A stretch of DNA of 61,805 nucleotides, counting the filler, from Sphacelaria rigidula (taxonomy: Eukaryota), in NCBI GenBank assembly GCA_964200075.2. It is 8 parts of 8 records of this genome, joined end to end, with 100 filler letters (N's around TTAATTAATTAA, not from the genome) between each part and the next. Parts side by side here need not be neighbours in the genome. Positions count along the whole stretch, not along the records: positions 1 to 7,639 come from CAXNAA020013983.1; positions 7,740 to 15,377 come from CAXNAA020013984.1; positions 15,478 to 23,115 come from CAXNAA020013985.1; positions 23,216 to 30,853 come from CAXNAA020013986.1; positions 30,954 to 38,591 come from CAXNAA020013987.1; positions 38,692 to 46,329 come from CAXNAA020013988.1; positions 46,430 to 54,067 come from CAXNAA020013989.1; positions 54,168 to 61,805 come from CAXNAA020013990.1. One strand, given 5' to 3'. Positions 1 through 61,805 of the stretch are shown piece after piece. Every line of letters starts with the position of its first letter. Positions within the stretch are counted from its first letter, which is position 1. Under the pieces are notes generated by a model. It saw only the letters and a program-made list of their open reading frames with translations. It had not been told where the DNA came from and did no database searches. The position numbers and the translations under genes are program-made.

Positions 1-2258
1 CCTCCGGGTTCTCATCCTCAATCAAAAGCACCATCCTCAACATAGATGATTGGCTGTTTATACTGGGTGTTGAGAAACATTAACCAATTAATTTTATCGA
101 CGTTCTCCTTCAGGCTCGTGTAAAGAAAAAAACTGGAAAATAATTTGTTTTTCTTCAAATTTCGTGTAAGTTTCGTTCAGTGATCAGCTGAACGGTCTAG
201 ACAGACTACCGTATCCGACGGTCTGTACCAATAAGGTCCGCTCATGACTTGCAGAGGAGTGGAGCTATGGTGGCCGCGTGATATATTAGGTAACCACGGA
301 GAGGTTAATATCGGGTACAGCGGTGGTAAAATGTGCTTTTCTTTTCTCGGAGCATTTTGCTCGGAGTAGAAAGGGCTTTCACAAGTAGTATATATACCCA
401 GATTCCCCCTGATTTTCGTGTTCGGATCAATTCGATGAACTTATTTTTCTGTAGACTAATGTTCTGAGTAAATTGATATAAATATGTTTTCATCGTTACG
501 GTGCTGTACATTGTTTCATAATTCATGAAGATGAACATCATACACGATCATATTCCACGTGCAAACAAGCAGAGAGAAAAAACGAGAAGGAGGACAAGTA
601 ACAAAAAAACGTCAGGGGTCGCAGGAGGCATCCAAACTAGATAACAAGGTGCCAAATTACCAAATAAATAACCTTCCATATATATACACATATATACCCT
701 TATTACTGCGCCCTTGCCGGGTGCTCTACATGAAAAAACACAATCACCTGGAGAGGCGAACTCTGCCCTTGCGTACTACTGTACCTCCCCTTACGTACAA
801 CTGCAACACCTTACTGCCACAAATTACTGCGCTACCCCCTCGGAATGATAATCTGACTATTGAATTTCAAATTTGCCCTCACCACTGCTCTATCCTCAGA
901 GTGCTCTCGTCCCTGCACCCACGTCAACAACCACGAAAATCACCAGCGGTATTCATGATCGATCCATGGATTGGGTGTCTCACCCTGTCAGCTGATTGCA
1001 ACAATCCAGCTTAGGATCATGATGGGGTTTTGTGTGCTTTGAGGTCTGCAGGTTTGCCTTGTGCGTTGTGTGCTTGTGGGGGTGGGGGTGGGGCTGCCCG
1101 CCGTGGGCACATCAATAATTTGATTGCCGAACTTACACAGGGATCTCAAACGCTTTTCCGCACTGCCGGATGACAGTTTTGAAATCGGTCTAGAGGGTAA
1201 GGCAGGTATCCCGTACTGGTATTTCGGACATCTCATACCCTACCGATACCGACCCAATCGAGTATTTTCAAGTGTCATACCTACGATACCCACGATACCA
1301 CGGTATTTCAAGATACCAGTACCTACCGTACCTGTTCCTTTCGCGGTCAGTGAATACCACTAAGCGAACGGCGTTCACCTTTTCTGTTGCCACGGAATAG
1401 GCGTTCGTCTCATCTGGGGAACAACCCTTATGTATGGAGAGGTACAGATGGGCCAATCAGGTTTGGTTTAGCGATTCCTGCCCGCCGCGGGTTGGCGCCG
1501 AAGGCGCAAAGGCAAATGGTGTCTACCAGCAGTAAAACATCATGTTTCGACGTCAACGCCCTCGTCAACGCCCTCCGATGGATGACATATCTTCGTGTAT
1601 GTTTTTGTCGCTCGAAAAGGTGTGGTGGAAAACAAAATTGTCATCGCATATGTCCACCGCATTCTGTTCCTAGTTGGCATTAACGATTGTTTTATCATTA
1701 CGGCGTGCCTTCGCACATCATTTTTTTATGGGAAATGTACGGTGGAAAAGGAAAACTCTGATTTGATAAGCCGTGATTTCACCTATTTTGTATCAAATTA
1801 TTGTTTGCGCACATTTGTCTGATCTCTCGAACCCGTGGTCACATATATAGGCTCGTCCATCCAATACCGTTCCTGCTATTCAGCGGTCGTGGCTTATTTT
1901 GAAGCTGGTTCAGATTACGACCTATTTCATTGGAGTTCCTGTTTTCCACTGCACGTTTCGATCCAAATATGATATGCTAAGGCACAGCCTTAGTGGCGAG
2001 CGGAGAAGAAGTGAAAAACAGTAAAGCCAACCTTTTTCTAACAAAAATGCGGGGAGAAGGCACGAAGAGGCGCTGGACCCCTAGCTTACAGACTACCACG
2101 CCATATACCATCCGTCCACATGATCACGCAAACTAGTACACACCACTCATCGTTGGCTACGGTCGCAGCCCTGCAGCATTGAGCAGGAGTTGAGCAAAGG
2201 GATGGATGCACTGCAGTAGTTGCGTATGCTGTGTGTACATTTTGTCGGCGAAAACTTG

Positions 2259-3620
2259 CACACGTCGGACGAGTCATGACTCGTCGAAACGAGTGCACTC
2301 GTTAATGTTTCTTGAAAACACCACGAGTACGGCTCGTGTGTTCGAGTTATTCTTCTGTCTTCACCAAGACCGACGACTCGTGTACTGGAGTCACGATTTT
2401 TTCCACCACAAACAATTTCTCGAGTGCTAGACCTATGAATTTTCTCCGCCACAAGCAGTGACTCGAGCGCTCGCCCTTCTATTTTTTTCCACCACGGGCA
2501 ATGACTCGAGTACTCGTCCTATTAATTTCTGCCACTACGAGCAATGAATCGAGTATTCGCCTATATTTTTTTCACACGCCGGACGAGCACGAGTATGACT
2601 AGTGGCACTCACACTCGTTGGGCTGTTCGTTGGCGGTAAAAATTGATAAGGTGAGTACTCGAGTCATTGCTCGCTGTGAAAAAACAAAATAGGGCGAGCA
2701 CTCAAGTTATTGTTCACGATGAATGACTTGAGTGGAGGAGCCAGCAATCCGACGAGCAAATAATTGTAATGAGCCCTTCGACGATCTTGAACCTAGAATC
2801 TTTAAGTTAATATGCATGTCTGCGCATGTGCAAGCGTCAAGCTCCAAAGTTCGTTTTCAGTTCCAAGCACCCCCACACACATACTGATCAGAGTTTTACC
2901 AAAGCAGCGGCGAGTATCTCTCGAGTAGTACATTTACATTTTTTTCAGGGCGAGCACTCGAGTCATTGCTCGTTGGAAAAAAACTCGTGACTCGATCACA
3001 CGAGTCATTGCTCGTTGTGAAAAAACTGAATGACTTGAGCACACGAGTCATTGGTCGTCGTGAAAAAACTGAATAACCCGAGCACACGACTCATTGCTCG
3101 TTGTGAGAAAACCTGAAAGACTCGAGCACTCGAGTCATTGCTCGTTGTGAAAAAACTGAATGACTCGAGCACACGAGTCGTTGCTCGTTGTAAAAGGACT
3201 GAGTGACTCGAGCACATGAGTCATGCTCGTTGTGACAAAAACTGAAAGACTGGAGCACTCGAGTCATTGCTCGTTGTGAAAAAACTGAATGACTCGAGCA
3301 CACGAGTCGTTGCTTGTTGTAAAAAGAAGCGATGACTCGAGCACATGAGTCATGCTCGTTGTGCTTTGCAAAACGTCCACGAGTACAGTCGTCTCGACGA
3401 CTAATGACTAGTCCGACGTGTGAATTTTTTCACCACGAGCAATGATTCGCGTACTCGCCCTATTAATGTATTCCCACAACGACCAATGACTCGAGTACCC
3501 GCCCTCCTCATTTTTTTTCACCACGAGCAATGATTCTAGTACTCACCCTAATATTTTTCCCACCACGAGCAGCCCAACGAGTTCAAGCCACGATCCATAC
3601 TCGTGTTCGTCCGACGTGTG
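2259..3620. mobile_element. Non-autonomous TIR DNA element with CACAC termini and 8-bp TSD, carrying a nested inverted copy of its own family
   Basis: TIR CACACGTCGGACGA at 2259 and TCGTCCGACGTGTG ending 3620. Perfect flanking AAAACTTG at 2251-2258 and 3621-3628. Internal ~43-bp repeats. Confidence 0.9.
2573..3422. mobile_element. Inner copy of the same family in opposite orientation, with a 43-bp tandem array (~2950-3360)
   Basis: Starts CACACGCCGGACGAG and ends GTCCGACGTGTG. Its left end matches the reverse complement of the outer right end, and vice versa. Flanks ATTTTTTT / AATTTTTT. Unit AGTCATTGCTCGTTGTGAAAAAACTGAATGACTCGAGCACACG at 3003, 3046 and onward. Confidence 0.8.
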
Positions 3621-6385
3621 AAAACTTGACTATCTTCTCTCATCGTAGGGACGAGGGTTAGAACGGCGTGGTAAGGTGGCCAACCCCCTCGCGGATGCGG
3701 TCATGGACACAATGCATGTATAAAGCTGCACGTTGTCCGAGTCCTTTTCACGTCGCATTGTGGGCAGAGAAAACAGATGGGGCTGCCGTGGAGGTTCTGC
3801 ATGTTCCCCGCTTCTCTCTCACATCCTGCTGCACGAAACATGCAGACACGAACTCAATATACACTGCATTCAAACAGCGTAGACAATACAGACTGTCTGT
3901 ATTGTTCACAAACGGCCATATACCGCTTCACGAGTCACCGTCCTTTTCCGATTAAAAGCTTGATTATTCGCTTCGACCCAAATCGAGTTACAAGATCGAA
4001 TTTCGCTAAAATTACTTGCCATCGCTTTTTTTTATGGAAAAATGCTGCAAGACACTCACTCGGCACGTTATGCCGTCGGTGCGCGAACTGCCATGGACGC
4101 CTTCATCAAAGCGCGTTCTTGATGTCGAGACGGCCATCAAGTGCGTCGACCCTATGCTCGAACGCGGTGCGGAATTTACGAAATAGAATGATTTCAACGG
4201 TTTGGTGATTGCGGCGTTTTCTACATGTATTTTCTGTCGAAAACCCTAGTGAGAGCTCCTAACCCGTGTACAGTACTGCCATCGCATACCAAAGTACTCG
4301 TATCTTTTAATAGTGCTACGCGATCGGGCCACGTTTTTGTCGAAACAAGTGATATCGGAATGAAGTTGGGAGCTCACATGCATAAAGTAAAGACGACAAA
4401 CCTTGGGGGATGCAATCTACATTTCGTCCATCCAACTGCTGATAAAAGTCCCATGACACCAGCAGGGCGCGGCAGCAGTATTGTGCTACGATAGGAGTAG
4501 TTTTCTGTCGAACCGCGGGTTCGCATTCACATATGTTGTCTCGTCTTCGCCGTTTCTGTGCTATGGCATGAACACTACCTCTTGCCTCCGTACTTCAGCG
4601 TCCATCTCCCACACCAAATTATGTTCATGTCTGCCATTCCGGCGACAGAATGTCGTGGCCGGCGCACGTTGTGCGTGCACCGCTGTGATGCACACTGTAT
4701 CCGCGCCACACCTTCGGCGATGCACACGATACTCGCGCTATTTTTTCTCTCTCTATCTTCAATATTTCATTGCGCTCACCGTGTCCTTGCCGCGCCCGTC
4801 ACCTCCAACCCTTGACCCCCTGTGCAGGCGGCCTTCAGGCCAAGGGAATCGCTCGGAGCACATGGACGGAGGGTGCAGATACCTCGGCGGAGCTGTTGCA
4901 CCGCGGCATGCCCCGTCCTGTGGGTCGGGGATGGAGAGATTCCGTGGGCGGTACGTGAGGCTTTCGCCTGGCTGTGGGACAGGGGGTCGTGTGGATTTGC
5001 CAGGCGTCTACGGAAAGCCTCCACGCTGTCGGTGTGAAGGGTGTAACAACTCCGTGATAAATGGACGGAGGGGGGGGCGGGAAGTTAAAGCTCACTTTGG
5101 ATCCACGATAGTCTGCCCCGCCGGAAGTTGGGGTGACGGTTCCTACCCGCCTATCACGAAGAATGTTAAATCCTTTTGTGGTCGTGGCGAATTCTTTTCT
5201 CCACATGTCGACGCCAACGCGTTGTGGTGTTGGGGGCGGCAGCGATCCGTGAGAACGGCTGCTGTCGGGGTTTGCGGATGTGTTGCGCTCCATGCCGGAG
5301 TATGGAGTCGTGTGATGAATTCGGCGCATATCGCACAAAAGGTATCCCTGTTTGGCCCAATGAGTCGCGGACTTGGGCCGTGGGTTCTGGGTACGAGGCG
5401 CCTCGTATTGCGCGGTTCAGTTGTCCTCTGTGGCGCGGTGTTAGGTGGGCTGATTTGTTCTTGTCCTCCTTCTCGGCTTTCTTCGAATTATGTAGCCTTT
5501 CCTCTGTGTGTGTTGTTTGTTGTCGGTGTCTGTGATCGTCTATATAGTATCTCGGTCTCTTGCGGGCTGGGGGTGTGTGGTTTATATCTGTGGTAGTGAG
5601 GTCTACACATATGCTTTGCCTGTGATCGTTTGGGTTTTCGATCTTGTGTTTTGTTTCAACGTTTGCCATAGGACTTGGGTTTCGGTTCACGATGATACGC
5701 GGCGAAGCGACGGCGCAGAGACCGTTTTTTCAACGACGACGTTTTGCGTTGCCTCTGCTTGATCCTTGGAGGACCTGTGCGAATATTTCAGTAGCAGTCG
5801 TTCCACGGTCCGACCTTTTTCATTTGTGCACTTCTGGCATCCGACTGTTCCCGTACCGTGCTTTGCTGCGGCACGCACGCTGGGTCACGGTCTCTCCACC
5901 CGGCGGTTACTCCGCCGACGGGCGAGTGATCCTGGCGCGTGTTCAGATGTTTTCTTAGATCGGCTTCTGTGACCTAAAAAATGACGGGGGTTCAAGTGGT
6001 TGGCGAGCGTCCGTCTCGCCTTCGAAGCTCTCCACTCATCGACTGGCGACAACTGGATGCCTGGCGCCCGGTGGGCGACTCTCAGACGTGGACGATGCGG
6101 ATCATTTTCGGGTATGCATCGATGGGGCTCAGTGTGCCGGCTTGTTGCCGGCTGTGTATTATTCTAGTGTCGGTGCAATCCGGCGCCATATCACCACAAC
6201 CGTGGAAGGTACGTCTCATGAAAAATCCCCCGCCCCTCCCGGACGACTGAAGCAAGCAAAAAATACGGACGCCTCCCCCCCTCCCCGGCGAGGGGTCCCT
6301 CGCCGTAATTGGGAGACTTGCTTTCATCCTACATGGAGTGCGATAATCAATCGATCGAAAAATTACAAGGGTCGGATTAGTTAAC

Positions 6386-6480
6386 GATTCGTCTGGATGT
6401 TACTTGGTTTTAGTGCAATTGATTCGTACCGTACGAATCAATCCCAAGGCTTCTTTTTCAGCGTCGCAACCCAGGTACGC
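6386..6480 (+). repeat. Dispersed repeat with a 25-bp palindrome; other copies at ~15971-16075 and ~61300-61354 (minus)
   Basis: ATTGATTCGTAC-C-GTACGAATCAAT preceded by GATTCGTCTGGA..., found on three contigs. Confidence 0.75.
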
Positions 6481-6567
6481 GCTGTTCATGTGAACAGGTA
6501 CACTGAGTGAACATGCACACGTGCGGATAGATTGATGCGGACGTGCGGGTACTGGTAGTCGAGTGTG

Positions 6568-7639
6568 TGTGACTACAGTATCCCGCTCATGGCAGCTACC
6601 GAGCTGCCGCCATGAGCGCTCTCTCACAACATCTGATCCCTCAGTCATAGGGTCGACTCAGTCTAGGCACTCTCCAATAATACAAAAGATAAAACTATCC
6701 TTCGCCACGGGCCACGGAGTACACTGGTGTTACAACCGGTTGGGCATAATGGCACAAGAGGGTGATAAGCCTGCTACAGTTATCGGTGGGCAGGGTGTTA
6801 CAGAAGATTTGCGAGAGGTAGGTGGTCAGATGGGTTCCTTGGCTCAGCTCATCCGTGATATGCAGATAAGCCAAGCTACATTACAGAGTAACTTGGCTAA
6901 CATGAGGACAGTAAGAGAGGCTGGGGGTGCAGAAAACAACGGCGTCCTCGATAGTGAAGGTTCCCACTGAACGGGGGGAATTCAACATGAATAGGACAGC
7001 GGAACGGCGTGGCGCTGGAGTCCGACGGGAGCGACGGTACATCGGGAGCCGAGCTGTTCCAGAGGACGAAGCGCGCTACGACATGGACAACGAGGCCACC
7101 AGTGACGAAGCCAGGGGCTTTGTCCCCGCACGTGATTCACTCCAACTTAACGATACAAGTGGAAATGGGTGAGGGGTTGCCGTTTTTCGACATAACGTTC
7201 CAAAATTTTCAAGGAAGAGCGCTGATTATGCTCGGTAGAGGCACGAACTGGTCAACTTCGCAAGGGGCGAAGGAGTTGACTGGGTATTCACCATGGCCGG
7301 CAATAGTTCTTACGATGTAGATGTCGTCAATCCTGAGATAGCGATGAGGTATCTAGAGAACAGACATGGAAAGGACACAGTGACAGCCAACGTAAGGGCC
7401 AGACGAATGCTTGTAGCTAGTTTTGGAGGAAGGAGGAAGCAGAATATTTTGCTTAAAACCCATTCACCTGCTGCGGTTTGGAGAAAACTTGAGGATGTCT
7501 TTCGCCCCAAAACAAATGGGGCGAGAACCGCTTTGTTGGGAAAGTTTGATGGAATCAAGATCGGTGTTCGTGATGATCCAGAGCAGAAGCTGCTCGAGAT
7601 GAAGGAACTTGCACGTAACCTGAACTCGTACGAGGAGCA
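6568..7639 (+). mobile_element. 5' part of a decayed Ty1/Copia-like LTR retrotransposon: candidate LTR 6568-6734 plus gag fragment, cut by the contig end
   Basis: ORF 7293-7639 SPAAVWRKLEDVFRPKTNGARTALLGKFDGIKIG..DDPEQKLLEMKELARNL resembles Copia gag (UBN2-type). Candidate LTR has TGTGAC...GTTACA ends; this boundary is tentative. Confidence 0.6.
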
Positions 7640-7739: not shown

Positions 7740-7808
7740 GATGCGAGGTCAATGGCCTTATGACTATAGCAGGCATGATCATGAGTACACCCCCTCCCCC
7801 TCCCCCCC
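7740..7808 (+). repeat. Short dispersed repeat ending in poly-C; also ~12313-12360, 12403-12470, 12687-12749, 47856-47919 and minus 46804-46873
   Basis: Consensus GGATGCGAGGTCAATGGTCTGATGACTATGGCATGCATGATCATGAGTACACCCCCCC. Confidence 0.85.
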
Positions 7809-8144: not shown

Positions 8145-8297
8145 CACACCCTGGACACTGATGATGCTTTTTTTTGTCCAAGAGTGTACTGCGTAGAGTA
8201 TCGACTATTGCGTTTGTCGCAATAGGCAGTGGAAGCAATACTGTACGCAGTGCACTTTTTGACAATGTAATGAGTTATTGTCATTATCCAGGGCGCA
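8145..8297. mobile_element. CACACCCTGGACA-family MITE in an ACC intron; another copy at 11179-11328
   Basis: TIR CACACCCTGGACA / TCCAGGGCGC. Internal AGTGTACTGCGTA.AGTATCGACTATTGCG is shared with 20595-20731. Confidence 0.7.
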
Positions 8298-11151: not shown

Positions 11152-11327
11152 GTACGACCGAAAAAAGGAGAAACACACCACACCCCGGATGGTGACGATG
11201 CGGTAGATGACATCGTCAAAAAGTGTACTGTTTACGGTATCAAATGTTTTGTCTAGTGCATGGACGCAATAGTCGATACTGTACGCAGTACACTTTTTTG
11301 ACCACGTAGTCTTCAGTCCAGGGTGTT

Positions 11328-11372
<45 letters not shown>

Positions 11373-12143: not shown

Positions 12144-12887
12144 TATGTGTACCCCCCCCCCCCCTCCCCCCCCCCGCCACTCCCGACGGCTCGCAGGCTG
12201 TCGCGACAAGCGCCCCGCCCGGGACCCCCGAAACCACNNNNNNNNNNGTGGCCCACAAATGGGGGGTTTTCTCCCGGCCCCGCTCGTATGGGTCCCCCCC
12301 CCCCCCCCCCGTATGGTCTTATGACTATGGCGTGCATGATCATGAGTACAACCCCCCCGCCTGGTCTGGCGAAAACCCGGCGTGCTCCGCCCCGGCTTTA
12401 TAGGGATGCGAGGTCAATGGTCTGATGACTATAGCGTACATGATCATGAGTACACCCCCTTGCCCCCCGCGATGTCGAGCCACCCATGAGGCAATGTTTG
12501 AGCTGTGGCTGTCTATGAAAGTGGCGATACCAGAGAAAGAAGCATCTCGTTGTAGACTTGCCATCCAAATGCATAATCAGTAGGCTTCGGGCCGATCAAT
12601 CTTGACAGGATGCAGCACAACCTTCATGCGACTCGCCGAACACACCACGGCGCTTCGTGATTGGTGACCGAGTGCGAGCCTTTCGAGGGATGCGAGGTCA
12701 ATGGTCTCATGACTATGGCATGCATGATCATGAGTACCCCCCCTCCCCTCTTTTTTTTGTGAAGATTGAATTGGAGGTCGGAGTTGAAGAACAGACGGGA
12801 AAAGAAAATGTTGCCTGCGCGTCCGACTTTTTTGGGGGATATCTTTATTTCATTATTTTGGTTACCTTGTTTTGTGCTGTTCTCTAG

Positions 12888-15828: not shown

Positions 15829-16482
15829 TTAATCGTATCCCAAACTCTCGATCTCACAAAAAAATCATTGTCTATCATGTGATCACGGTTGGATTCCTGA
15901 GGGATAACTCAAAGTGACACAATCAATCAACCAAGATTCAGGCAAATTTCCAAGGGTCGGAAGAATCTACGATTCGTCTGGAAATGACTTGATTTTAGTG
16001 CGATTGATTCGTACCGTACGAATCAATCCTTAGGCCTTTTTCTCAGCGTTTTTTGCCAGGTACGCGCAACCCAGGCACGTGGAATGGCGCAAAAATTGCG
16101 TGAAGACCTTTTTGACGAGCGGTAATTATTTTTTTTCCCTCTTTCGAGCAATCAGGTCTGAAAAATCCTGGATTTCGTTATTCGAACAGGCGATGATTCG
16201 TCCGAACCGGGCAAATTTCCCCTTCTACTATTCTACTCCTTCCAAGTGGGAAATATGCGATTTCTCATTCACAAGTGGAAATTTTGCTCTCGCCGCAAGG
16301 CTGCACATCGTAGAGGGTGTGTAGAGGGTCGCCTCAGGGGGTTCTGGACCTTTAGAGGGTCTGCAGAGGGTCTCTCCCTGAGGAAGGTGTTCCGAGGGTG
16401 TAGGAAAGTGTCCATCTCATTGTACAATAGCACATATGCCCGTTCGATGCTCGTGCTTGTTGCCCACGAGCGACATACAGTA

Positions 16483-20594: not shown

Positions 20595-20731
20595 CATGCC
20601 CTGGACAAAGAATACACAGTCAAAAAGTGTACTGCGTACAGTATCGACTATTGCGCCTATTGCAACAGACAATACATTCCATACTGTACACAATATATTT
20701 TTTTACAATATATTCTACTGTCCAGGGCGTG
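20595..20731. mobile_element. 137-bp MITE with CA(C/T)GCCCTGGACA TIR and perfect 8-bp TSD
   Basis: CATGCCCTGGACA ... TGTCCAGGGCGTG; CAACACAC at 20587-20594 and 20732-20739. Confidence 0.88.
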
Positions 20732-21598
20732 CAACACACCGAGCTTCGACAGACCACGCAAAGAAAATCCGCCGCATATATGCCTCAACTCCAGAGCAAG
20801 CACTTGCTGATCATCTACATCTACACAAAGCAATCTTGTGTCTGACGGAGAGCCCTTCAGTACTGGAGGAAGGACGACCGCGTGCGTGTTATTTCACAGC
20901 CGAAAACGTGCCGTTACTGACCCTTCGAGTGGATGGTTTCGGCGCTCTCCTGGCACGAAGTATTGGTTCTCACTCAATACTCTGCGGGTCTGACACACGC
21001 GAAGCGACATAGTACTCAGCTGATCCACGATTACGGCTCGCGCTGTGTTTTGCTTTTAGCCAGGGCCAGTGAAGGTCTCAGATTCGCGTCTGGTCGCGAT
21101 GGACCGTGTCTCACATCTTTGAATGCGCGTCAGCTGTTGCGACGTTTGTGTTTCCCTTCGAGCGAAGTCGTCGTGACTCATCTGTCGGGTAGCGATCACA
21201 ATTGTTTCGGCGATTTTCTCGGCGGGTGGTAGCCAAGTGACGAATCACAACAGAGCATGAACAGCAAGCCGGTTTTGAGGAAAACGACTCTTCGGCACGT
21301 ATTTACTGTCCCGAACTAGACGACCTAAACACAAAAAGTATAACTTTCTCCTTCAACCACATGACAAAACTACTGCTGTAAAAGCACCGGCCCTGTCCTT
21401 TTGTGTCACGCATCACTCTCAACTATCCCGTGTCCACTGAGGTCAACTCTTACGGAAGCCGTTCAAAGTCAAGATTGCGCTCCATTTTGCCCGATGTGAA
21501 GAAATAATTCTCACCGAACGAAAGCAGTGATGGTCTCGAAGAAAGGTGATCCTATGATTTTGAATTTTGGTCAGCGGGCGGGTTTCTGATCAAAATTA

Positions 21599-22052
21599 GG
21601 CCGCTTCTTCTTGTCAGAAAACGGACTCTCTGAGAACTGCCCTTTGTGAGCCGTTTGTCGCGGATTTTGGGCAGAATACGGACCTTGGCGGACTGGACCT
21701 CCTCTGAAAGATTTGCTATGCTTTCCAAGAGGATTCTAGGGCGCTTTCCCGATATTTCGTACGACCAGTTTCACTTCTAGCCAGATTCTCGATTTTTTCA
21801 GTCACCCCAGGAATCTTAGAGTTTTCCGGGAAATTAGATTTTGGGAGCGACTGAAAAAATCGGGAAACGGCCAGAAGTAAAACTGGGTGTACGAAAAATC
21901 GGGTAAGTGCGCCAGAATTCTCTGGAAATGTATAGCAAATCTTTCAGAGTAAGCTCACTCCGCCAAGGCCCGTATTCCGCCCAAAACCCGCGACGAGAGG
22001 CTCACGAAGGGCAGTTCTCAGAGAGTCCGTTTTCTGACTATAAGAAGCGGCC
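21599..22052. mobile_element. Foldback PIF/Harbinger (Tourist-like) MITE with ~205-bp arms
   Basis: GGCCGCTTCTT..GTCAGAAAACGGACTCTCTGAGAACTGCCCTT mirrored at the right end; flanks TTA / TCA. Confidence 0.85.
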
Positions 22053-22169
22053 TCAGCACCTCATGTTGCACGTCCGGCGAAAAATTGAGTAGCTACTCAA
22101 AATCGGGTAAAGAACCAAACTATGGGACAAGACATGTTTGTACTGCGGCACAAACACACTCACGCCCTC

Positions 22170-25881: not shown

Positions 25882-26298
25882 CAGTGGATTCTCGAAAATG
25901 GGGTTGCAGAGAAAAATGAGGTTCAACTCAAAAGCCATGTTTTCCCTGACCGAAATTCATGACAAATGACTTTCATATGAACTACCACATCCCTCCCGAC
26001 CTCCCTGAAACTATTTCGAGGGATTTCTAGCCTTCCATTCCCCCAATGGGTATGCGCGGAAGCACGTTTTTGTCTCGATTTCGGGGTGAAAAAATGACGT
26101 TTTTCGTCCCCAAAATCGTGCTTTCGCACATACCCTTTGGGGAAACGAAAGACTGAAAATCCCTCGAAATAGTTTCAGGGAGGTCGGGAGGGATAGGGTG
26201 GTCCATATGAAAGTCATTTGTCATGGATTTAGATCAGGGAAAGCACAGCTTTTGAGTTGGACCTCATTTTTTTCAACCCCGTTATCGAGAATCCACTG
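25882..26298. mobile_element. Foldback MITE with ~190-bp arms and pogo/Tigger-like CAGTGG termini
   Basis: CAGTGGATTCTCGA / TCGAGAATCCACTG, long mirrored arms (TCCCTCCCGACCTCCCTGAAACTATTTCGAGGGATTT). TA TSD not intact. Confidence 0.85.
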
Positions 26299-33031: not shown

Positions 33032-35439
33032 CACACTCTGGACAATGGGCACAATAATCGTTCATTGCTTCAGCAATAGACATTGGGAAAAATCTGTCGA
33101 TCTATATATTATCGAACACGATGGATTGTGAAACACATCTATTGATATGTATTGCAAGGGACAATATATGTTGCAATAGTCGATCGATAGCCTTTGGCAA
33201 GTACAATAGATGAAGATCATTCGCCATCGATGAACATCGTGTACCGCAATAGATTCTGTGTTGTATATATCGATAGCCATTGCCGTAATCAAAATGTTTG
33301 CTGAGCCATCCATCGATATTCATTGCCGTCATCAATAGATTAAGTGAGTTATCCATCAATACCCATTACCGCCATCAATAGATTTGGTGAGCCGTCTATC
33401 GGTAGCCTCTGCCGCCAACAATGCATTTTTGATATCTACCAACGTGGGCATTGCCGTCAACAATCGATTGCTCTCAGCACCACGTATCGACAGCAAGTGA
33501 CGCCAACGATAGCTTTTGAAAAATAGATTGCTCACTGCAGTGGTCTCATGACATCAACGGCAATACCTCTTACACGTGAACACGCAACGATAGCTGACCA
33601 TAGCTTCTGTGGAATAAGGCGGGAACATAAATCGAAAACTGTGCCTACATAGCGCTAGTGATCGACGCCATTCAGCTACCTTTGTGGTCAGCAATAGATA
33701 TTGATGGCCGTGATTCAGATTACATTGTGGCAAACGGTAGACATTGATGGCCGCGATTCAGATTCTATTGTGACCCTGAATAGACATTGGTGGGCGCAAT
33801 TGGTATCCTTCTGTGACCACCAATATGTATTGGTGGCCGCGCGGCAGATTCTATTGTGATTGGCAATAAATATCGGTGGCCACAATTCAGAGCCTATTGC
33901 AACAAATTAGATGTATCGACAGACAACTGGGCCCTTCCATTGTCACGGCAATGATACATCATGTCCCTTGTCCCGAATCTGTTGTCGCCTACAATAGCTA
34001 TCGGTAGACTCCGATGCCAGTCGATCATGACTGACAATGAACATTGACAGTCAAATTTTCGGGGCTAATGCAGCGCCAATGTTCTATTCCATTGTCTATT
34101 GTCCAGGGTATAAGAACATCTCACCCACACACAAAAGTTCTGTAAGCGCCCATGTCCATCAGAGGGACAGCCATAAGTACCAACACCACACCAACAAAAG
34201 TTGAAGACTATTTTCTACACATGTTGCGGATTCCTACAAACTACAAGCGTCCCGAAATTGTAGAAACGTGATGTCATATATTCACAAGTAGTATCATTAT
34301 GTACCCACAGCATGTCCACCTGCGGCTTCTCTACCGTACCTTAACGGAGTATACTATTCTCTATACGTAGTATGTTACTATCTAGGTGTGGCAATAGACG
34401 GCAGAGAAAATCTGTCGATAGGCATTATACACCACAGTAGATTCTGGTATGTATCTATCGATTTTCATCGCCGCCATGCATAGATTTATACTTCCTCTGT
34501 CCCATAAGTAAAGATACTTGAATTTGTACGGGCCCTTGGCGACGTCCGATCGTTTTTTTTTAATGAACTCTACGGTGTTTTTTGGGTTAAGAAAATGTGT
34601 TTGAAATTGCAGCTCGTGCTTGAACCATGCAGCCGTGCGGCCAAGAAAAAGTAGGTCGGTCCAAAAACGGCCATTTTTCGCTCGTTTTCGCAGGAAAGCA
34701 TGATAGACCCGGGAACACGAAAAATCGCGAAAAATGGGCCAAAAAAATCTGAAAATGGCGAAACCACCATTGATTTTGGACATGTTCGTGATATTAATCT
34801 ACGCACGCTCCATCCAACATTTTGTTAGCATGTGACTGCTAGTGCTCGGCGTGTAGACGTCCAAAATCGGTCAATGATGAGGGGAAAATGGATCAAAAAG
34901 GGTCAAAATGGAGTATATTTCGACATAGTTTCAGTGATTAAAACGGTTTTTTTTTCGTCTTTTTTTTCATCAGCTTCGTCTGCGCTTTGCGTTTCTAATG
35001 AACCCAACCACAACATCGTCCCCACCACGGGCATACCTAAACATTGTATCACCGTTAGGCACCTTTACTTACGGGACAGAGGAAGTACACAATCTATCAA
35101 TAGCCATTGCTGTCATCAACAGATTTGGTACACAATCTGTCAAGAGCCATCGTCATCAAAACATTTGGCACGCGGTCTATCGATAGCCATTGCCGTCATC
35201 AATAGATTTGGAAAGCTATCGAGCGATGCATTTGGTCGGCCGCGATATATTTCGGTGTAGGGCCATAGCATACTGCTGCCCAGACAAGAGTGTGGAAAAC
35301 TGGTCTATCGATAGACGTCGCCAACGACAACAGAAATATAAACCTGCCGATCGATGGCCATTACGGACGACAATATTGGCATCTACTGTAGCAGATTATA
35401 TTGCTATCGCAATAGATGCCGTCTACTGTCCGGGGTGTG
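33032..35439. mobile_element. CACAC-terminus element (possibly composite) with 8-bp TSD and 43-bp degenerate repeats
   Basis: CACACTCTGGACA / TGTCCGGGGTGTG; flanks AACCATTA / AACCACTA. Repeat units at 33695, 33738, 33781, 33824. An extra internal right end at ~34098-34110. Confidence 0.8.
34491..35085. mobile_element. Stowaway-like (Tc1/mariner) MITE, 595 bp
   Basis: TA|CTTCCTCTGTCCCATAAGTAAAG ... CTTTACTTACGGGACAGAGGAAG|TA. Confidence 0.9.
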
Positions 35440-37650
35440 AACCACTACCATTATCACCATTTTATTGACAATGGCCAGTTATAACTGGTACCATTTCCGA
35501 GCTCTAGCAGAGGTGCATTTGTAGGTTCTGTATCGTACTGGAGGACATGAGTAGCAGCGTAATTTTCTCAGCATACCGGTTCTATGTAAGCTGCGTGCCG
35601 TGTGTCTTGACGGTTGGTGATTTTTGTTTTGTCTCTCCCTCCAGATGGGCCGTTCCCTCCCTGACGAACGGTGAAGGCTCGTGTATTTACCCTCCGTGTT
35701 GACCGCTTGCGTGGTTGTTCATCGAAACGTTCCACACGCCGGAGAGCTCATTAGCTACCTAACACTAACAGGACTCTAAGATTCTTCGTTCAAGAACACA
35801 GATGCATGACAGCTGGGTCTGAGAAGTCGCAGCGCTACCCTTGCGGTACTCCTCGTGCTCGGCGGCACGCGCTGTAGGGAGCAGCAGATATGGAAGAAGG
35901 GCCGACTGAGCTAGTTCATGATCCGGATATATACACTGACAAAAAGTACTATTTGGATAGCTCATGAGCTGTCCGACTTTTGAAATGTTCCTTCCCCTCC
36001 ATCATTTTCCCCCTGTCACTGTGTCTCCTTAGTGGCACAAAACCCATTCATGTGGATAATTTTCTAGTCAGTTCATTTTTTTGCGCGAAGCACGATTATA
36101 GCCGCGCGTTTGAGATCGGCACCCGGCAAGATTGAGAACCTCTTCTAAAATCAGGCGAAGAACTAAAACATCGGACATGTCCTGTTTCACTGTATATCAG
36201 CATGAACACACTCACAGGCTCCCCCATGTGCTATAGCTATGACTGTTCTGTGGTGTGTTGAAGACTTTGCGAAGGCGGCGTGGACTCCGCTGGCATTGCC
36301 CGAGTTGCTGTATGGTTGCGTTTGTCTCTTTATAGAAAGTAGTATCAGTCGGGACGCAGTGCTGTCTACGCACTTGGCTGTTGAAAACTTCATGGTGCGT
36401 TGACTATTTTGCCTTCCGTAAAACGAACAAGGCGCTGCCCAGACCCATCACTTGCGCGATATCAAACATGATTTGGTGGAGACACACAACCAGCACCGAT
36501 ACACACCTCTCGACCGGGTGGGTCAGACCCCGTGCTCCGATGAAAAGAGCACCAGACAGCACAGCGGATATGCTGCACAGCCAGGGCACTCACTGATTGC
36601 ATCCGGCAGTTGCTGCTGCTGACATGGGTGCCAGGGCTTGTGCCACGGAAATATGTAATCAGCCATACTAAGATGACGAAATGCCTATACAAGAGCACTG
36701 CAATGACCATCCGCTGTCTACTGCTTCGTTTCTCTGCTGCTGCTCTATTCATTCCGGCGCGACTATTCTTTCATGTACTGTAGTACGTACAGTGCAACGG
36801 GGACTCGACTCTGCGAGTTAATCACAAGCATTTTTCGCACCATAACTCACTACCGTACTAAGACCGTATTTCATTGGCGCTAGACCTGGCCGATTCCTTA
36901 CTGAAAGGCCTCTGATTCGTTGAATTTTTCTATATCACTACGAAAATCTATCGCCTCCTTTGTTTCGACCAGGTATAATGGCGACCGAATAGTTTCCGTA
37001 GATACGGAGAACATCGGGTCTGGTGAAAACGGCGGGACGCATCAGACGTATCCGGTGAGTTGAGAGTTGTTTTGGCATTTACGTGAGGGAATGGAGTTCA
37101 CAGCTTTCCAAGTTCATGGATAGCGTTGACGGCTGAAGTTAATGGTTGCCAAAGGTGGAATTGAAGGTATAGATATAGCGAGAGATTGTTACGTTTTCCG
37201 CTTACTAATATAACATCCAGTCATCATTTACATCATTTTCATCATTATTATCATTGTCGCACATTAGCCCAACCTCTCGAGAACCCGTGGTCACAGGCGT
37301 AGGCTCGCCTTTCCAGTACCGTCACTACTATACCTTTCACATGTAGGGTTTTGACGTATATTAGGTGCGCGGATCGTGGTTGGTACTTCATTGGCAATCG
37401 TGTATGCTTGCAGGGTCATGTTGACCCTTTGAGGGCCAAGTTGGGTCATCCGGGTTTTCATCGTCAATTTTTCGAGTAGAGATGAGGCCAAAATATTCTG
37501 AAAGTATGGAAATCCAAGGGTTCATTCTAGAGCTGTGCGTGCATGAGCCATGGTGTACCTTTTTCTCGCCTTCGGTTGCGTCCTGATCTATACCTTTTCG
37601 TTTCGCACTGAGGCCCGCTGCAGCAGCACGGGGCAAGCGTCAGAAATTTG

Positions 37651-38064
37651 TAGAGCTCGGAAATGGTACCAGTTATAACTGGCCATTATCATTATAATGG
37701 TAATAATGGTTATGGTTATATGAAACTTGGGGATAATGGTTTCAAACCATTATTTACCGTTACCGGCTTTATAAGCCGTTACCGGCTACGTATCCTACAT
37801 GTAGCCTTTGAAAATTGGCCCAAATATCACGATTTTTAGCTCCAAAGAAGCCAAATCACGTAAAAACGTGCCTCCCGCATGGCGCCTCCAGCGGGGCCCT
37901 CCGGGGGCTCTTCCGGCGGGGCCCCCTCTGCCGAGGGGTGCTTTTTGGCTTGTGGCTGCGCCGCTCGATGACCAAACCATTATGTACCATTTACCTGGTT
38001 AATGAGTGCGCTACGCATAACCATTCAAATGGTTATTGGTTAGGCAAACCATTTCCGAGCTGTA
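37651..38064 (+). mobile_element. hAT-type MITE, 414 bp
   Basis: TIR TAGAGCTCGGAAATGGT / ACCATTTCCGAGCTGTA; 8-bp flanks GAAATTTG / GAAATTAG; subterminal AATGGT motifs. Confidence 0.87.
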
Positions 38065-39702: not shown

Positions 39703-40261
39703 CGATGAATCTTCTTTACCTCTTCTCCGCGCACAAGGTAGACGGCGCGCGCCCCCTGCACAGTGTGAGGGCTGAGTGGTGAAGTTTTCGCAGAACACAT
39801 CTCCCACAGGTGCCGTGGATAGCTCAGGAACAAAGCCCACTCCCCAGAGCTGGCCTGAACTGTTCTTTCGACCAATCTCCGCCGGGACGTCCCAAATCCC
39901 GAGCGCGTGATGAGGTGCGTCTCACCACCTGACGTCTTCTCCCCGTCCGCGGGCAGTGCCCCGTGCACTAATCGGGACATCGCTGCCTTTGCTTCACACA
40001 CACTGCCTCTGAAGTCCGCGTCGTCCCCGGTCGCTGTTAGTGGTATGGTCGCGTCCCTTGGTCCTACCATCGTGGTCGAAGGTTTGGACCACACGCCGTT
40101 GGCAAATCAAATGGACCCTCTAGAGAGTAAGTACAAGGCATACGCCTACCATGGTATCAAATCCCACCGCATGTATCTGCCAGAAAACCCGTGAAGACAC
40201 AGGTACCTCTGTATCATGGTTGATCAGTACTGTGGACTACACTGAAAAGGTTGTTCACTCG

Positions 40262-41350
40262 AATATCCCACTCATCATGCTCTCGATCATCCGTCAATTC
40301 CACGATGGTATGCAAGCTCGGGTGCGCACGAACTACGGGGAATACTCGGAATGGTTCGACATCGGACAGGGGCTCCGGCATGGATGCGTCCTAGCACCAC
40401 TAGTCTACTGCTCAATATTTTCTTCACGGCAGTACTCATGGTGGCGCTGGCAACCTTCCGTGATGGCCCTCACATCTCGAGGGACCTGGTGTGAGTTCGA
40501 AAGCGCGAAAAGAGATATTTCCAACAGGAATGAGCGGTAGCATGGGTCGTGCCAGACGTGGCCACAGCGATCGCGGCGGAAGAGGTACGATCCTTATGGA
40601 GCATGCTGTACGCCGATGACGCCTGCATCGTCTCGCGGACATCATCGAGCCTCGAGAAGATGATGACGGTGATTGTGACCATCTGCAGAGAGTTAGGGTT
40701 GACCGTGTCGAAAGCAAAGACGAAGACTATGCGACTGCGTTCACAGGCGGGGTACCTCGACATCAACGCGGCTGGCCAGGTATACAAACAAACAGACAAC
40801 TTTGTATACCTGGGGGGGTCAACTACGGAGAGCGGCGATCTCTCGGTGGAAATAAAATAGCTCGTACAACGGGCACGGTCGAACTACCACCAGTACAACG
40901 TCCGACTCTACAATCGACCGAACGCGGCTGTCCACCTCAAGGTCCGCATGATCAAAGCCGAGGCTGTCGAAGCGCTTCTGTACGGGTGCGTCACATGGAC
41001 CACTCTCAACGGCCACTACAACCTACTGCGCACGGGTCACCATGCATTGCTCAGGCGCTGCCTTGGATGGCGCAAGCGCAATCGCACAGACCACGTTCTG
41101 TTATACCGAGAGACCCTCGCGAGGACAGGGTGCGAACGCATCGATACGACGTTGAGGGGGAGAAGACTCCATTTCGCCGGTTTCGTTACGCGCATATGTC
41201 ACCAAACATGTCATGTTCGGTGAAATTATAGCCGTAAAGGGGCAACAAGGAAGATTTAACGACAGGTACAAGGACTGGATCCGCTGCCCAGCGGTTGACA
41301 TGAAGGCCTTCGGTATCGAATGGCAGGGGTGGACTATCAGAGCCTTAAAT
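40262..41350 (+). mobile_element. RTE-clade LINE reverse transcriptase and C-terminal region, 5'-truncated, with stops and frameshifts
   Basis: [63 protein letters not shown]. Confidence 0.95.
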
Positions 41351-46238: not shown

Positions 46239-47984
46239 CTGTTGTTGAGTAAAATAAACAAAGAATATGATGGTCTTACTTGGCGTGTCGCATGGCCTTT
46301 GGGGTCATTTTCTCGGGGGGGGGGGGTGGNNNNNNNNNNNNNNNNNNNNNNNNNNNNNNNNNNNNNNNNNNNNTTAATTAATTAANNNNNNNNNNNNNNN
46401 NNNNNNNNNNNNNNNNNNNNNNNNNNNNNTGCGAGGAGGGGGAGGGGGTGCTGATAGTCATGATCCGTAGTCATGATCCAATGTCTGGATGCAATGCGGG
46501 TTTCGGGGGGGGAAAACTATGTGTTGGATTTCTCGGAGACTGACTGCGGGCTTGTACCGAGAAAGAGGGTGTTACTGAAAAATGCATGGTGAAGATCAAC
46601 ATATATGTTTTTATCGTGTACGTATTTGTAACGAGTCCGTCATCACCGAGAGATTAGCCCATCCCTCTTCGTGTACCTGCGTGGCACTTTTGGTAACGCG
46701 GATTGGGTCGGAGCTTCGTCGTCGCGTTCGCTCTGGTAGAAGTTTCGTTCGCGTGCTTGGATGGATCCTCGCGGTTCTAACCATGGAGAACCAGATTTAT
46801 GCCGGGGGGGGGAGGTGTACTCATGATCATGCATGCCATAGTCATCAGACCATTGACCGGGGGGGGGGGGGGAGGGGAACCTGCTCTTCTTAATAGTGTA
46901 CGTCGGAACTCGAGCCCGGAACCTTCGGCCCTCGCTGGATTGCAAGGTGACTTGTTGAATGCCTGGCTGGTCACACACGATCGCAGCAGATCACAACATA
47001 TGGCCAATACATGCAATAGACCAAAAATGCACTGGGTTGAGTATAAGCCTGTTGCATCTATTGTTTGTCGATGGATGCAATAGACCAAAAATGTACTGGT
47101 TTTGGTATAGGCTTATTGCATCTATTGACCATATGTATTGTCACTGTCCAGTGTGTGAAGAGCTTCGCGTCGTGTCTCGACCAGGTGCTTGAGTCTCTCT
47201 GCATTTTGGGCATCGTTCACACTGTGCCTTACTGAGCATATGAAAAACGATGTACGACAGAACCACTGCAATGCTCGTTGCGTTGAGTATAATATATGTT
47301 GTGCTTCACGGTCGTAGTCCCCAAGCCTGGGGGGCGGGGCGGTGGTTAGTGTGCCTCATCCAGGTGTCGTGGTGGTGTTGTCATCGCAGTTACGCAACAG
47401 TACTGCTTCACTGGTTCACCTTACCACAGGGGAACAGCCCACACAAAATGCATGGTGTTGGCGCAGTATCATGGGAGCAGCAGGAACAGCCAACTAGCGG
47501 CGTGAATGACTCAACGAGATAGTAACAGCTCCCCTCCATCCACGTTCCCCCCGTCCCAAGTAGATTGTGAGGTGTCAATCATTCGCCAGAAGTCGAATTC
47601 TGATCATTCTGATCAGCAACCTTTCACACTGTAATTTCTACCACCCCACCCCATACCGGGAGAGATATTGCCTACGCACTCTTGTCGAGGAAGCGGGGGG
47701 GGGAGTTGAAAGCATGAATGAAAAACAAATTGCTATGATTCATCGTAGTGAAAACCTTAGTTGTGCTCTCAAAACATTTTTTTGTAGCTCAATCCACGGG
47801 TCCTTCAGGCTCACCCCACCCCCCACCCGCCGGCGTGCTCCGTCCCGGCTTCGTAGGGATGCGTCGTCCATGGTCATGTGACTACGGCATGCAAGATTTT
47901 GAGTACCCCCCTCCCCCCCGCGCCCGTCCTTCCTGCTGCCGTCGAACTCCCTGACCGGACCACTGTGTACACACCATGCGTCAG

Positions 47985-48398
47985 GAATATGCCGAGATAG
48001 ACCCTACCGTCAGAGGAGGCTACGACTTTCTAGACGCTGCTCTCATGCTCGCGGGAAACAACGCCCGACGCCCACCCCCCGACATGGCAGCGAAGGCCAA
48101 GAGAGCCCTCGCCCGGGCCGGGGTGCTCAGGGCGACGAGCGTCAGAGTACGACACTGCTCGCACGCCTACGCCCTTGTGCTCACCGTGGCCGCTACCGCG
48201 GCGAAGGCAGCTGCCGCCGCAGCTTCGGCGGTTGCCGGGGCGGCGGTTGGGGGCGGCGTTGGGAGCGGGGGCGGGAGCGGAAATGACTGGAAGCTGGTGT
48301 ATAGTGGAGATTGTCGGCCTTGCGATGAGCTTGTGAGGGAGGGGAAGGGAGCGGCCGTGCTGATCCATGAAGCTACGTTCGACGAGTCCAAAGCGCAG
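47985..48398 (+). CDS. tRNase Z (ELAC2/Trz1-like metallo-beta-lactamase fold) exon
   Basis: [12 protein letters not shown]...[12 protein letters not shown]...LIHEATF; 414 nt, CAG / GT borders. Confidence 0.92.
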
Positions 48399-48480
48399 GT
48401 GTTGCATGTGCTGAATGCATCGGTTGTGGGTGGCTGTGGGTGGTACTGACACCATCAACAAAAGACTTTCCCTCAATGTT

Positions 48481-56204: not shown

Positions 56205-57025
56205 CAGTGTTGTCGTCCCTTCTATTCTGGACGCCGGTGTCTACACCTTTCGGTATATATATATATGGGCGCACCAGCCGGGGTCACACAGGAGCTTGTT
56301 ATTTTTCATTTGTTTCTAGTACCCCACCTTCCTTCTGCAGGGCTTGCCTTGATTTTTTATCGCGAGAAGGGTTCAGCAGTCCCTTTCCCTCGTCGACCGA
56401 TCAAGTCGATTTTTGTGTACCAACAACGTGTTCGCCCTACATTGTTGGGCATGGTGTGAGGGGAAGGCGTTTATCGTAGAAAAAAACTTCTTGCCAACAA
56501 ATACACAAAGTCAAGACGTGAATCGGCATCATTTTTACTCTTTTTCAGGGTAAAATGATGCCGATTCTCAAAGTGACCCGTCCAACACCCCGAGAAACAT
56601 TTTCGCCAAAAAAGTGAACACCTACCATAGCATGGCTCCGATCTACACCTTTCGGTATATATATATATATATATGTGGGCGCACCAGCCGGGGTCACACA
56701 GGAGCTTGTTATTTATTTATTTATTTTAGTACCCCACCTTTCTTCTGCGGTGTTTGCCTTTAGTTTTTATCGCGAGAAGGGTTTAGCAGTCCCGTTCCCT
56801 CGTCGACCGTTAACCCTTGAACCGCGAGGGTAGTCCATGTGGATCATGCATACTTTTTTCTAGTAAAATTGATGCCGATTCAGCATATGACCTATTCTCG
56901 GCATATAAGGGTTAAGTCGATTTTTGTGTACCCACGACATGTTCGCCCCCCACTGTTGGGCATGGTGTGAAGGGAAGACGTTTATCGTAAAAAAAAACTT
57001 CTTGCCAACGAAAACACAAGGTCAA
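56205..57025 (-). mobile_element. Two tandem headless SINE-A copies (~56205-56515 and ~56640-57025)
   Basis: Both match the 52810-53065 body and share the same non-tRNA flank, which suggests a local duplication. Confidence 0.85.
56814..56911. mobile_element. piggyBac-type micro-MITE, 98 bp, inserted in a SINE
   Basis: TTAA|CCCTT...AAGGG|TTAA. The paralogous SINE at ~56391-56410 shows the empty site. Confidence 0.92.
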
Positions 57026-60012: not shown

Positions 60013-61192
60013 CACACCCTGTACAACTATAACTAATAACTAACTAAGTTAGTTGTTTGGCAGACAACTACCAGGTAGTTGTCTGCAGGTAACTAGTTGC
60101 ACACGATTCTGAACCAGTAGTTGTCTGCAGGTAACTAGTTACGCACGATTCTGAACCAGTAGTTGTCTGCGAGCAACCAGTTGCGCACGATTCTGAACCA
60201 GTAGTTGTCTGCAGGTAACTAGTTGCGCACGATTCTGAACCAGCAGTTGTCTACAGGCAACTAGTTGCGCACGATTCTGAACCAGTAGTTGTCTGCAGGC
60301 AACTAGTTTCCAGGGCAGTTGTCAATGTAGGAACAACTTGCTCGGGTAGTTGTCAACAACAGAACAATGGGACCGTAGCTATGTTCCAGGAGAAGTTCGT
60401 ACTTGGATTTTTCGGGTTTTCGGGCTCGGCAGCGACAAGGATAGATGTAGCCGCCACCTGCTCACGAGAGTACCTCTTTTGTGTTTTGTTCTTGCTGGAT
60501 GCATTCTCTCCTCCGCAACCAGTGTTTTGTTTTGCACCGCCCAACATATTATTCTGGAATTTATGGGGATGTGGTTCGGGAGATAGCTCCCGCTTTGGAG
60601 AGGGGTGGTGGTCATCTAGCTATGAGTTGGAATAGTCATGCTCTCGCGCGGAATATCACAACAGCATGTTGCGTTTGCCATCGTTCATATCGCCAGCCTA
60701 TATAGGCTGGCGTGATCTTCGTGGTCTGCCCCCCCGTTCTCGCGCAGATACGGCTTAACACCACCACCACTACTATGATACCTGCTGTTGATGCATGTCA
60801 TTTGTCACAACTACCCAACTATGTTAGTTGTTTGGCAGACAACTACCAGCTAGTTGTCTGCAAACAACTAGTTACGCACGATTCTGAACCAGTAGTTGTC
60901 TGCGAGCAACCAGTTGCGCACGATTCTGAACCAGTAGTTGTCTGCAGGCAACTAGTTGCGCACGATTCTGAACCAGTAGCTGTCTCCAGGCAACTAGTTG
61001 CGTACGATTCTGAAAAGTTAGTTATCTACAGGCAACTAGTTGTGTACGAATCTGAAAAGTTAGTTGTCTGCAGGCAACTAGTTGCGTACGCATCTGAAAA
61101 GTTGGTTGTCTGCAGACAACTAGTTGCACACGATTCTGAACCAGTAGTTGTCTGGCAAACAACTATCAACCATCGTAGTTGTACAGGGTGTG
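60013..61192. mobile_element. CACAC-terminus element with two 42-bp tandem arrays (~60075-60310 and ~60850-61155)
   Basis: Perfect 17-bp TIR CACACCCTGTACAACTA / TAGTTGTACAGGGTGTG; flanks GAAAGTTG / AAACGTTG (6/8). Unit GATTCTGAACCAGTAGTTGTCTGCAGGCAACTAGTTGCGCAC. Confidence 0.88.
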
Positions 61193-61805
61193 AAACGTTG
61201 ACCGCTGGTCAAAAAGGTTCCCACGCAATTTTTACGCCATTCCACGTGCCTGGGCTACGCGTACCTGATTTGCAACGCTGAAAACAAAGCATAAGGGATA
61301 ATTCGTACGGTACGAATCAATCGCACTGAAATCGAGTAATTTCCAGACGAATCATTAGTTCGTCCGGCCCGTGCAACACTTCGTTCCCTTAGAAATTATT
61401 AATGTCGGGGCCGCACATGATACACACGACGGGTCTGCACGATGGATACTCGCACGTGCGCGATGGACCTCTGTCTGGACACGTCGTTCGCCGCCGACGT
61501 GACCAGGGCTGTTCCTCTTCTGTCTCGCTCTCCACTCGCTCTGCACTCGTAACACACCGCAGCACACCACACATCTCAGCGCGCTGCGATCCAAAAGGGT
61601 ACCGTATATGTGCTGAGCAAGTTATACGTAATCAAGTATGTCGGAATTCACTGAGCGGTGCGGCGGAAGCTACCGACAACAACCTTATAATTGTTCCATC
61701 GTGTTCGCTCTTTAGCTTCGCCATTTTGTCGTCCCCCCACCCGTGTTTCTGTTTGTCTCCCATTTTCTCAATTATCTTGGTTATCCCATGTTTTTATTCC
61801 CCCCC

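What the first reader, a model, noticed from the sequence alone, without database searches (positions are those of the whole stretch)
2251..61200. Recurring group of DNA elements with CAC(A/G)C termini and 8-bp target duplications that fits no common MITE class
Seen: independent elements on different contigs all begin CA(C/T)RC, end GYGTG and have 8-bp direct flanks. They are 2259-3620 (AAAACTTG, perfect), 20595-20731 (CAACACAC, perfect), 33032-35439 (7/8) and 60013-61192 (6/8), with weaker cases at 8145 and 11179. Sizes span 137 bp to 2.4 kb with unrelated interiors. Known: CAC-starting superfamilies (CACTA/Chapaev, Transib) make 2-5-bp TSDs, and hAT ends are usually YARNG. 8-bp TSDs also occur in P and Zisupton/KDZ. 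Inference: these are non-autonomous partners of one poorly described transposase lineage.
Basis: partly seen in the sequence, partly recalled or inferred. Interest (0 to 1): 0.75.

Follow-up and report, generated by a model that had tools for sequence, protein, structure and literature searches.

The report
Brown-algal hAT transposons with CAC ends
These are short non-coding cut-and-paste transposons of the well-known hAT superfamily in a brown alga, likely moved by hAT transposases that sit between the same ends elsewhere in the genome; only their CAC ends and 42–43-base end repeats are unusual.

Summary
The four elements, their CAC..GTG ends and the 8-bp duplications are real. Across four families, 55 of 86 two-ended copies have an 8-bp duplication with at most 1 mismatch (0 of 86 at 7 or 9 bp; 0.8% in cross-paired controls).

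One correction: 2259-3620 is not independent. It is a fixed passenger in a larger repeat, and empty paralogous sites carry one copy of the 8-mer.

The elements are hAT. Three long elements in the same genome (8.0, 6.8 and 3.7 kb) have these ends and enclose hAT transposase sequence. A profile of the clade matches only Hermes in the PDB (E 6e-36), with D180, D248, CxxH, W319 and E572 aligned.

What remains of interest:
- The transposases form a divergent 'ERDF' group that separates from the genome's TAG-ended hATs, with relatives in other brown, red and green algae.
- 11 of 13 transposase-linked ends carry 42–43-bp (or 85–86-bp) periodic subterminal repeats, against 0 of 8 TAG-hAT ends.

Verdict: new members of a known superfamily; modest interest.

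The parts
2259..3620 (.). Family A non-autonomous hAT element, 13-bp TIR CACACGTCGGACG, 43-bp subterminal repeats, flanked by AAAACTTG on both sides; fixed passenger in a larger repeat
   Evidence: both ends 76% identical to the transposase-bearing element L238:5361-9046
2573..3422 (.). Probable inverted self-nested copy of family A inside 2259-3620 (flanks 7/8 in a T run), shared by several genome copies
377..6335 (.). Larger host repeat (approximate limits, at least 5.9 kb, class not determined) that carries element A; related repeats have the empty site
6366..6482 (.). Fragment of a family E element
   Evidence: 82% identity
8145..8297 (.). Degenerate family B-like MITE, no recognisable duplication
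11179..11328 (.). Family B-like MITE, 7/8 flanks in a CA run
15951..16211 (.).
20595..20731 (.). Family B MITE, 137 bp, TIR CA(C/T)RCCCTGGACA, perfect duplication CAACACAC
   Evidence: same TIR as the L246 transposase family
33032..35439 (.). Family C non-autonomous element, 2408 bp, 43-bp subterminal repeats, 7/8 duplication
   Evidence: last 45 bp 87% identical to the left end of L246 element, first 391 bp 83% identical to the right end of transposase locus L248
59927..61373 (.). Family E MITE (about 260 bp when empty), TIR CACGG(T/G)YCGGACG, 7/8 duplication, interrupted by element D
   Evidence: same TIR type ends transposase loci L171-173, L220, L221, L223, L226, L229
60013..61192 (.). Family D non-autonomous element, 16-bp TIR CACACCCTGTACAACT, 42-bp subterminal repeats, 6/8 duplication, nested in E
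   Evidence: exact coding partner not found

Best explanation
The elements are non-coding hAT DNA transposons (MITEs and larger derivatives) of several families with CAC-type ends, and they were likely mobilised in trans by the hAT transposases found between the same end types elsewhere in this genome. Shown: the ends, the 8-bp duplications, empty sites for element A, the transposase sequence between matching ends, and conservation of the Hermes catalytic residues in the clade. Inferred from established hAT biochemistry: the transposase binds the 11-16-bp TIR, its N-terminal BED-type zinc finger binds subterminal repeats, it excises the element and inserts it across an 8-bp staggered cut at nAAnnTTn-like sites, and gap repair leaves the duplication. 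Inferred and untested: the 42-43-bp repeat period (about four helical turns) phases BED-binding sites on one face of the DNA. Element A spread later as a passenger of its host repeat. Present activity is not shown; the coding copies examined look decayed.
For: Long elements with both ends and transposase inside:
- L143:924-8955, 8032 bp; PF05699 E 1.7e-14.
- L246, 6779 bp, 7/8 duplication; exons with DLWTS, VTDAGSDV, CFAH, QRW and ERDF motifs, matching full-length P0018 at E 4e-17 to 5e-10.
- L238:5361-9046, 3686 bp, perfect duplication; PF05699 E 8e-10.

13 of 14 loci of the L246 transposase family have a CACACCCTG(G/T)AC-type right end 1.2-1.7 kb after the last exon, with differing flanks. 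Seven loci of the L171 family stop being homologous at an E-type end.

The clade profile A3 hits only Hermes in the PDB at E<=0.1 (best 5.6e-36). The ten best Foldseek rows are Hermes (low-confidence model, pLDDT 50). Catalytic positions are conserved in 65/70, 73/77 and 66/71 non-gap rows. 8-bp duplication statistics. Empty sites in 5 of the 10 loci fetched for this. hAT-2_ESi has CACAC-GTGTG termini.
Against: L143's own flanks are not a duplication (4 mismatches). The L246-family C-terminal exon alone is below Pfam's cut-off (no hit; E 0.04-0.15; Hermes E 8e-4 only by profile), so its hAT status rests on the chain through P0018 and A3. No coding partner with the exact D end was found; the nearest are L234 and L254. 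Window MITEs share only ends with coding copies, except A, C and E. No intact open transposase gene or transcript was demonstrated. 31 of 86 copies have 2 or more mismatches in the 8-mer.
Confidence: 0.93

Rival explanations
1. The elements belong to KDZ/Zisupton or P, which also make 7-8-bp duplications.
For: KDZ elements in Ectocarpus make 8-bp duplications and have tandem repeats in their termini; Kyakuja has CA..TG termini with 7-bp duplications but no TIRs.
Against: The listed Ectocarpus KDZ termini are GGG.. or CAGTA, none CACAC. All three complete coding elements found carry hAT sequence. That search started from hAT hits, and KDZ or P transposases were not searched in G000.
Confidence: 0.02
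2. The ends belong to an undescribed transposase superfamily, and the hAT genes between them are coincidental nested insertions.
For: L143 lacks a duplication, and CAC MITEs are abundant enough to flank a gene by chance.
Against: End type follows transposase sub-clade in the tree. Distance from last exon to end is constant within a family while outer flanks differ. L246 and L238 have duplications around the whole coding element.
Confidence: 0.02
3. They are hAT, but some window families (notably D) were moved by a clade member now absent or unassembled, or by cross-mobilisation, not by the partners identified.
For: No exact D-type coding copy among 8 D-end loci extended; the assembly has 27,214 contigs.
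Against: L234 and L254 coding loci end in CACACCCTGTACAA and CACGCCCTGTACAAC, close to D. This rival refines the best explanation rather than replacing it.
Confidence: 0.35

Closest known systems
hAT-2_ESi / hAT-2_Ec32 (Ectocarpus; Repbase synonym, PMC12477816 supplementary file 1)
   Same: hAT superfamily, CACAC-GTGTG termini, spliced transposase gene, 8945 bp against 8032 and 6779 bp here; clade proteins occur in Ectocarpus spp..
   Different: Described there from a single intact copy lacking a duplication (8 bp assumed), with 21-bp TIRs and no listed MITEs. Here 8 bp is demonstrated and several families are abundant. Sequence identity could not be tested because the FASTA supplements were unreadable.
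Hermes (hAT; PDB 8edg, 4d1q, 2bw3)
   Same: BED-type N-terminal region, D180, D248, CxxH, RW319 and E572 align with the clade profile; 8-bp duplication and BED-bound subterminal repeats (PMC10368747, passages).
   Different: ERDF instead of ERTF; proteins often longer (many 700-950 aa); CAC termini; Hermes subterminal repeats are dispersed 4-bp motifs, not 42-43-bp tandem units.
TAG-ended hATs of the same genome (L149, L150, L154, L157, L163)
   Same: hAT dimerisation region and 8-bp duplications.
   Different: On the other side of a split with SH-aLRT 99; SER(V/L)FS motif; no 42-43-bp period.
KDZ/Zisupton
   Same: 8-bp duplication; tandem repeats in termini in Ectocarpus.
   Different: Different termini and, in Ectocarpus, mostly above 8 kb; no KDZ protein seen inside these ends.

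Membership tests
hAT superfamily | 8-bp target-site duplication | tested here: met
   55/86 with <=1 mismatch at k=8, 0/86 at k=7 or 9; empty sites with one 8-mer
hAT superfamily | Short TIRs (10-25 bp, PMC3942097 passage) | tested here: met
   11-16-bp TIRs
hAT superfamily | DDE transposase with CxxH and RW motifs as in Hermes, encoded between the same ends | tested here: met
   that these Hermes residues are catalytic is recalled knowledge
hAT superfamily | PF05699 C-terminal region | tested here: met
   Above cut-off in L143, L238, L171, L141; below cut-off in the L246 family
hAT superfamily | N-terminal BED zinc finger | tested here: inconclusive
   C, C, H conserved and aligned to the Hermes N-terminus; no zf-BED Pfam hit; fourth ligand column not resolved
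   Termini are CAC; a tendency, not a rule: hAT-1_Ec32 has TTGGC and hAT-2_Ec32 CACAC
hAT superfamily | Hairpin-forming excision chemistry and present activity | not testable with these tools
   needs an excision or integration assay
Ac, Buster or Tip subgroups of hAT | Transposase falls inside the named clade | not tested
   No named reference sequences were in hand; the tree used only G000 loci and clade homologues
hAT-2_ESi family | Sequence similarity to the Repbase consensus | not testable with these tools
   FASTA supplements unreadable; only the termini match
KDZ/Zisupton | KDZ transposase inside the ends | tested here: not met
   Three complete coding elements hold hAT sequence and no KDZ Pfam hit in the ORFs scanned; no genome-wide KDZ search was run
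CACTA/EnSpm, Transib (CMCT) | 2-5-bp duplication (PMC12730594 passage) | tested here: not met
   perfect matches at k=2-5: 1, 1, 3 and 0 of 86

The most novel reading that the evidence does not exclude
The CAC-ended 'ERDF' transposases are an unnamed major hAT group spread across brown, red and green algae, whose ends keep a fixed four-helical-turn (42-43 bp) repeat spacing while the repeat sequence turns over between families. That would be a conserved transpososome geometry with a freely evolving DNA-recognition code.
Probability: 0.3. Interest if true: 0.5.

Novelty: new member of a known kind. Interest (0 to 1): 0.27.

Why it matters
Practically, it classifies several abundant brown-algal repeat families as hAT and confirms the 8-bp duplication that was only assumed for the catalogued CACAC-ended Ectocarpus element. 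It also shows that Pfam and terminal-motif rules miss this clade: the L246 family falls below the Pfam cut-off. If the fixed 42-43-bp spacing is functional, it gives a natural series for testing how hAT oligomers read transposon ends, and an active member from a kelp or wrack might be developed as an insertion tool for seaweeds.

Tried and rejected
KDZ was my first lead and was dropped once the Ectocarpus table and the coding copies pointed to hAT.

Target-specific insertion (Dada-like) as the reason for A's constant flanks was considered. I rejected it because flank homology runs for kilobases, the inner nested copy is also shared, and empty and filled hosts form separate divergence groups; a single old insertion explains it better.

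Null results: Pfam on L246 ORFs, none at E<=0.1; longer-homologue search with the L246 exon, none; no transposase sequence in the window or in L215, L207 or C-family long copies; no coding partner for D; no left end found for L173, L326 or L327.

The AlphaFold model was poor (pLDDT 50) and is used only as weak support. The tree is a quick tree on 103 columns, midpoint-rooted, with ERDF rows over-sampled by my search; rows under 65 aa were left out.

Literature searches for CACAC-ended algal hATs or periodic hAT subterminal repeats found only PMC12477816 as relevant; the library lacks most subscription papers and Repbase Reports. No earlier scan notes were found.
Full report
Setting. The window is eight contigs of a 244-Mb, 27,214-contig eukaryotic assembly, G000. 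A protein read from one G000 contig is 100% identical to one that NCBI labels Sphacelaria rigidula, a brown alga.

Observation. The four elements and their flanks are as described. I defined the ends without reference to the flanks. 86 of 101 loci had both ends. At 8 bp, 28 were perfect and 55 had at most one mismatch; at 5-7 and 9-12 bp none had at most one mismatch. Cross-pairing flanks between loci gave 0.82%. The target consensus is roughly nAAnnTTn. For family C, 2 of 4 full copies show the duplication.

Element A needs a correction. 29 of 30 copies of 2259-3620 share the same host flank, and homology runs from about 377 to beyond 6300. It is one old insertion amplified inside a larger repeat. 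Five of ten loci fetched to look for the empty site (L316-L320) have contiguous flanks with a single AAAACTTG, which shows directly that the insertion duplicated 8 bp. The sites at 8145 and 11179 are decayed relatives of B.

The transposase. G000 has 139 matches to the hAT domain PF05699 among 150 of 248 candidates scored. Extending these and their relatives gave three complete elements with CAC ends.
- L143:924-8955 (8032 bp) has TIR CACACGTCGGAC and PF05699 at E 1.7e-14, but its flanks are not a duplication.
- L246 (6779 bp) has TIR CACACCCTGGACAATAGA and a 7/8 duplication. Its exons carry the D1, D2, CxxH, RW and E motifs and match the full-length Ascophyllum protein P0018.
- L238:5361-9046 (3686 bp) has a perfect duplication and PF05699 at E 8e-10.

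Links to the window. Both ends of A are 76% identical to L238. C matches the left end of L246 (87% over 45 bp) and the right end of L248 (83% over 391 bp). B shares its TIR with the L246 family, where 13 of 14 coding loci show that end 1.2-1.7 kb after the last exon. E-type ends close seven coding loci of the L171 family and L226. No exact partner was found for D. The window itself holds no such transposase sequence.

Protein identity. A 100-sequence profile of the clade hits only Hermes in the PDB (E 5.6e-36), aligning D180, D248, C265/H268, W319 and E572; that these are the catalytic and conserved Hermes residues is recalled. They are conserved across the clade, and the residue two after the catalytic E is D in 66 of 69 rows. 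The ESM Atlas and Foldseek on a poor model agree. Against this, the L246 family exon alone misses Pfam's cut-off and reaches Hermes only at E 8e-4 by profile.

Clade and range. In a quick tree of 80 C-terminal fragments, a branch with SH-aLRT 99 separates 24 canonical rows, including all five TAG-ended elements, from the ERDF rows, including all CAC-linked ones; end type follows sub-clade. The tree has few columns, no outgroup and biased sampling. Named relatives come from Ectocarpus, Scytosiphon, Ascophyllum, Choristocarpus, an 'Undpi1' gene model (read as Undaria), Gracilaria and Mesostigma. Their ends were not examined.

Subterminal repeats. A, C and D have tandem units of 43, 43 and 42 bp with no mutual sequence similarity. 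The strongest period was 42, 43, 85 or 86 bp in 11 of 13 transposase-linked CAC ends, 0 of 8 ends of four TAG-ended hATs, and 36 of 500 random 500-bp windows. The 13 ends are not all independent, and I had seen several of them before fixing the period set. The short MITEs B and E lack the repeats, so they are either dispensable or were lost after amplification in another form; this counts against a strict functional role. Hermes BED domains need precisely placed subterminal motifs (PMC10368747, passages), so phasing at four helical turns is a plausible inference but untested.

Mechanism. Shown: ends, 8-bp duplication, empty sites, hAT transposase between matching ends. Inferred: cut-and-paste mobilisation in trans, with TIR and BED-repeat recognition and an 8-bp staggered insertion. 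Not shown: present activity; the coding copies examined have apparent frameshifts, deletions or nested insertions.

What is known. [quoted passage not shown] Its KDZ families have other termini, and its CAC-starting EnSpm families have 2-bp duplications. The FASTA supplements could not be read, so family-level identity is open. PMC12730594 (passages; supplement term search) gave the CMCT and KDZ duplication lengths. PMC3942097 (passages) gave the hAT definition and the Ac/Buster/Tip division. bioRxiv 2024.02.19.579948 (passages) had nothing on these elements; its supplements are closed. Searches found no paper naming this clade or the repeat period, within an open-access-only library.

Verdict. 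Real elements, an ordinary superfamily, and a probably catalogued relative. The divergent algal clade and the fixed repeat period are modest additions. Novelty: new member of a known kind. Interest 0.27.

Noticed in passing
window 377-6335; L311-L325: An at least 5.9-kb interspersed repeat of undetermined class carries element A as a fixed insertion; more diverged relatives (L316-L320) have the empty site.
   Followed up: partly
L334:7227-7493 onward; L345:2154-2921; L207; L029: CAC elements stack directly against one another, a new element starting right after the 8-bp duplication of another, consistent with the shared nAAnnTTn target preference.
   Followed up: no
L143:7599-7858 and L170, L225: The coding element itself carries a fixed family E MITE downstream of the transposase.
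   Followed up: partly
window 35486-37671: Another element with long inverted ends (flank-adjacent GTTATAAC TGGTACCA), not CAC type.
   Followed up: no
window 21598-22053 and 25909-26274: Fold-back elements with 185-bp and 164-bp arms, 85-87% complementary.
   Followed up: no
window 6536-7639 and 40124-41231: Gag-like ORF fragments at the end of the first contig, and LINE reverse-transcriptase-like fragments (identified by eye, not tested).
   Followed up: no
window 47903-48449: Exon resembling an RNase Z C-terminus (HEATF motif; recalled), not tested.
   Followed up: no
protein clusters of P0007-P0009 and P0017: Near-identical clade transposases form clusters of 21, 84, 215 and 70 members, one with Ascophyllum-labelled members, suggesting recent expansion in other seaweeds.
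   Followed up: no
window 7752-7801, 12313-12750, 47830-47923: A further short dispersed repeat ending in C-rich tracts.
   Followed up: no
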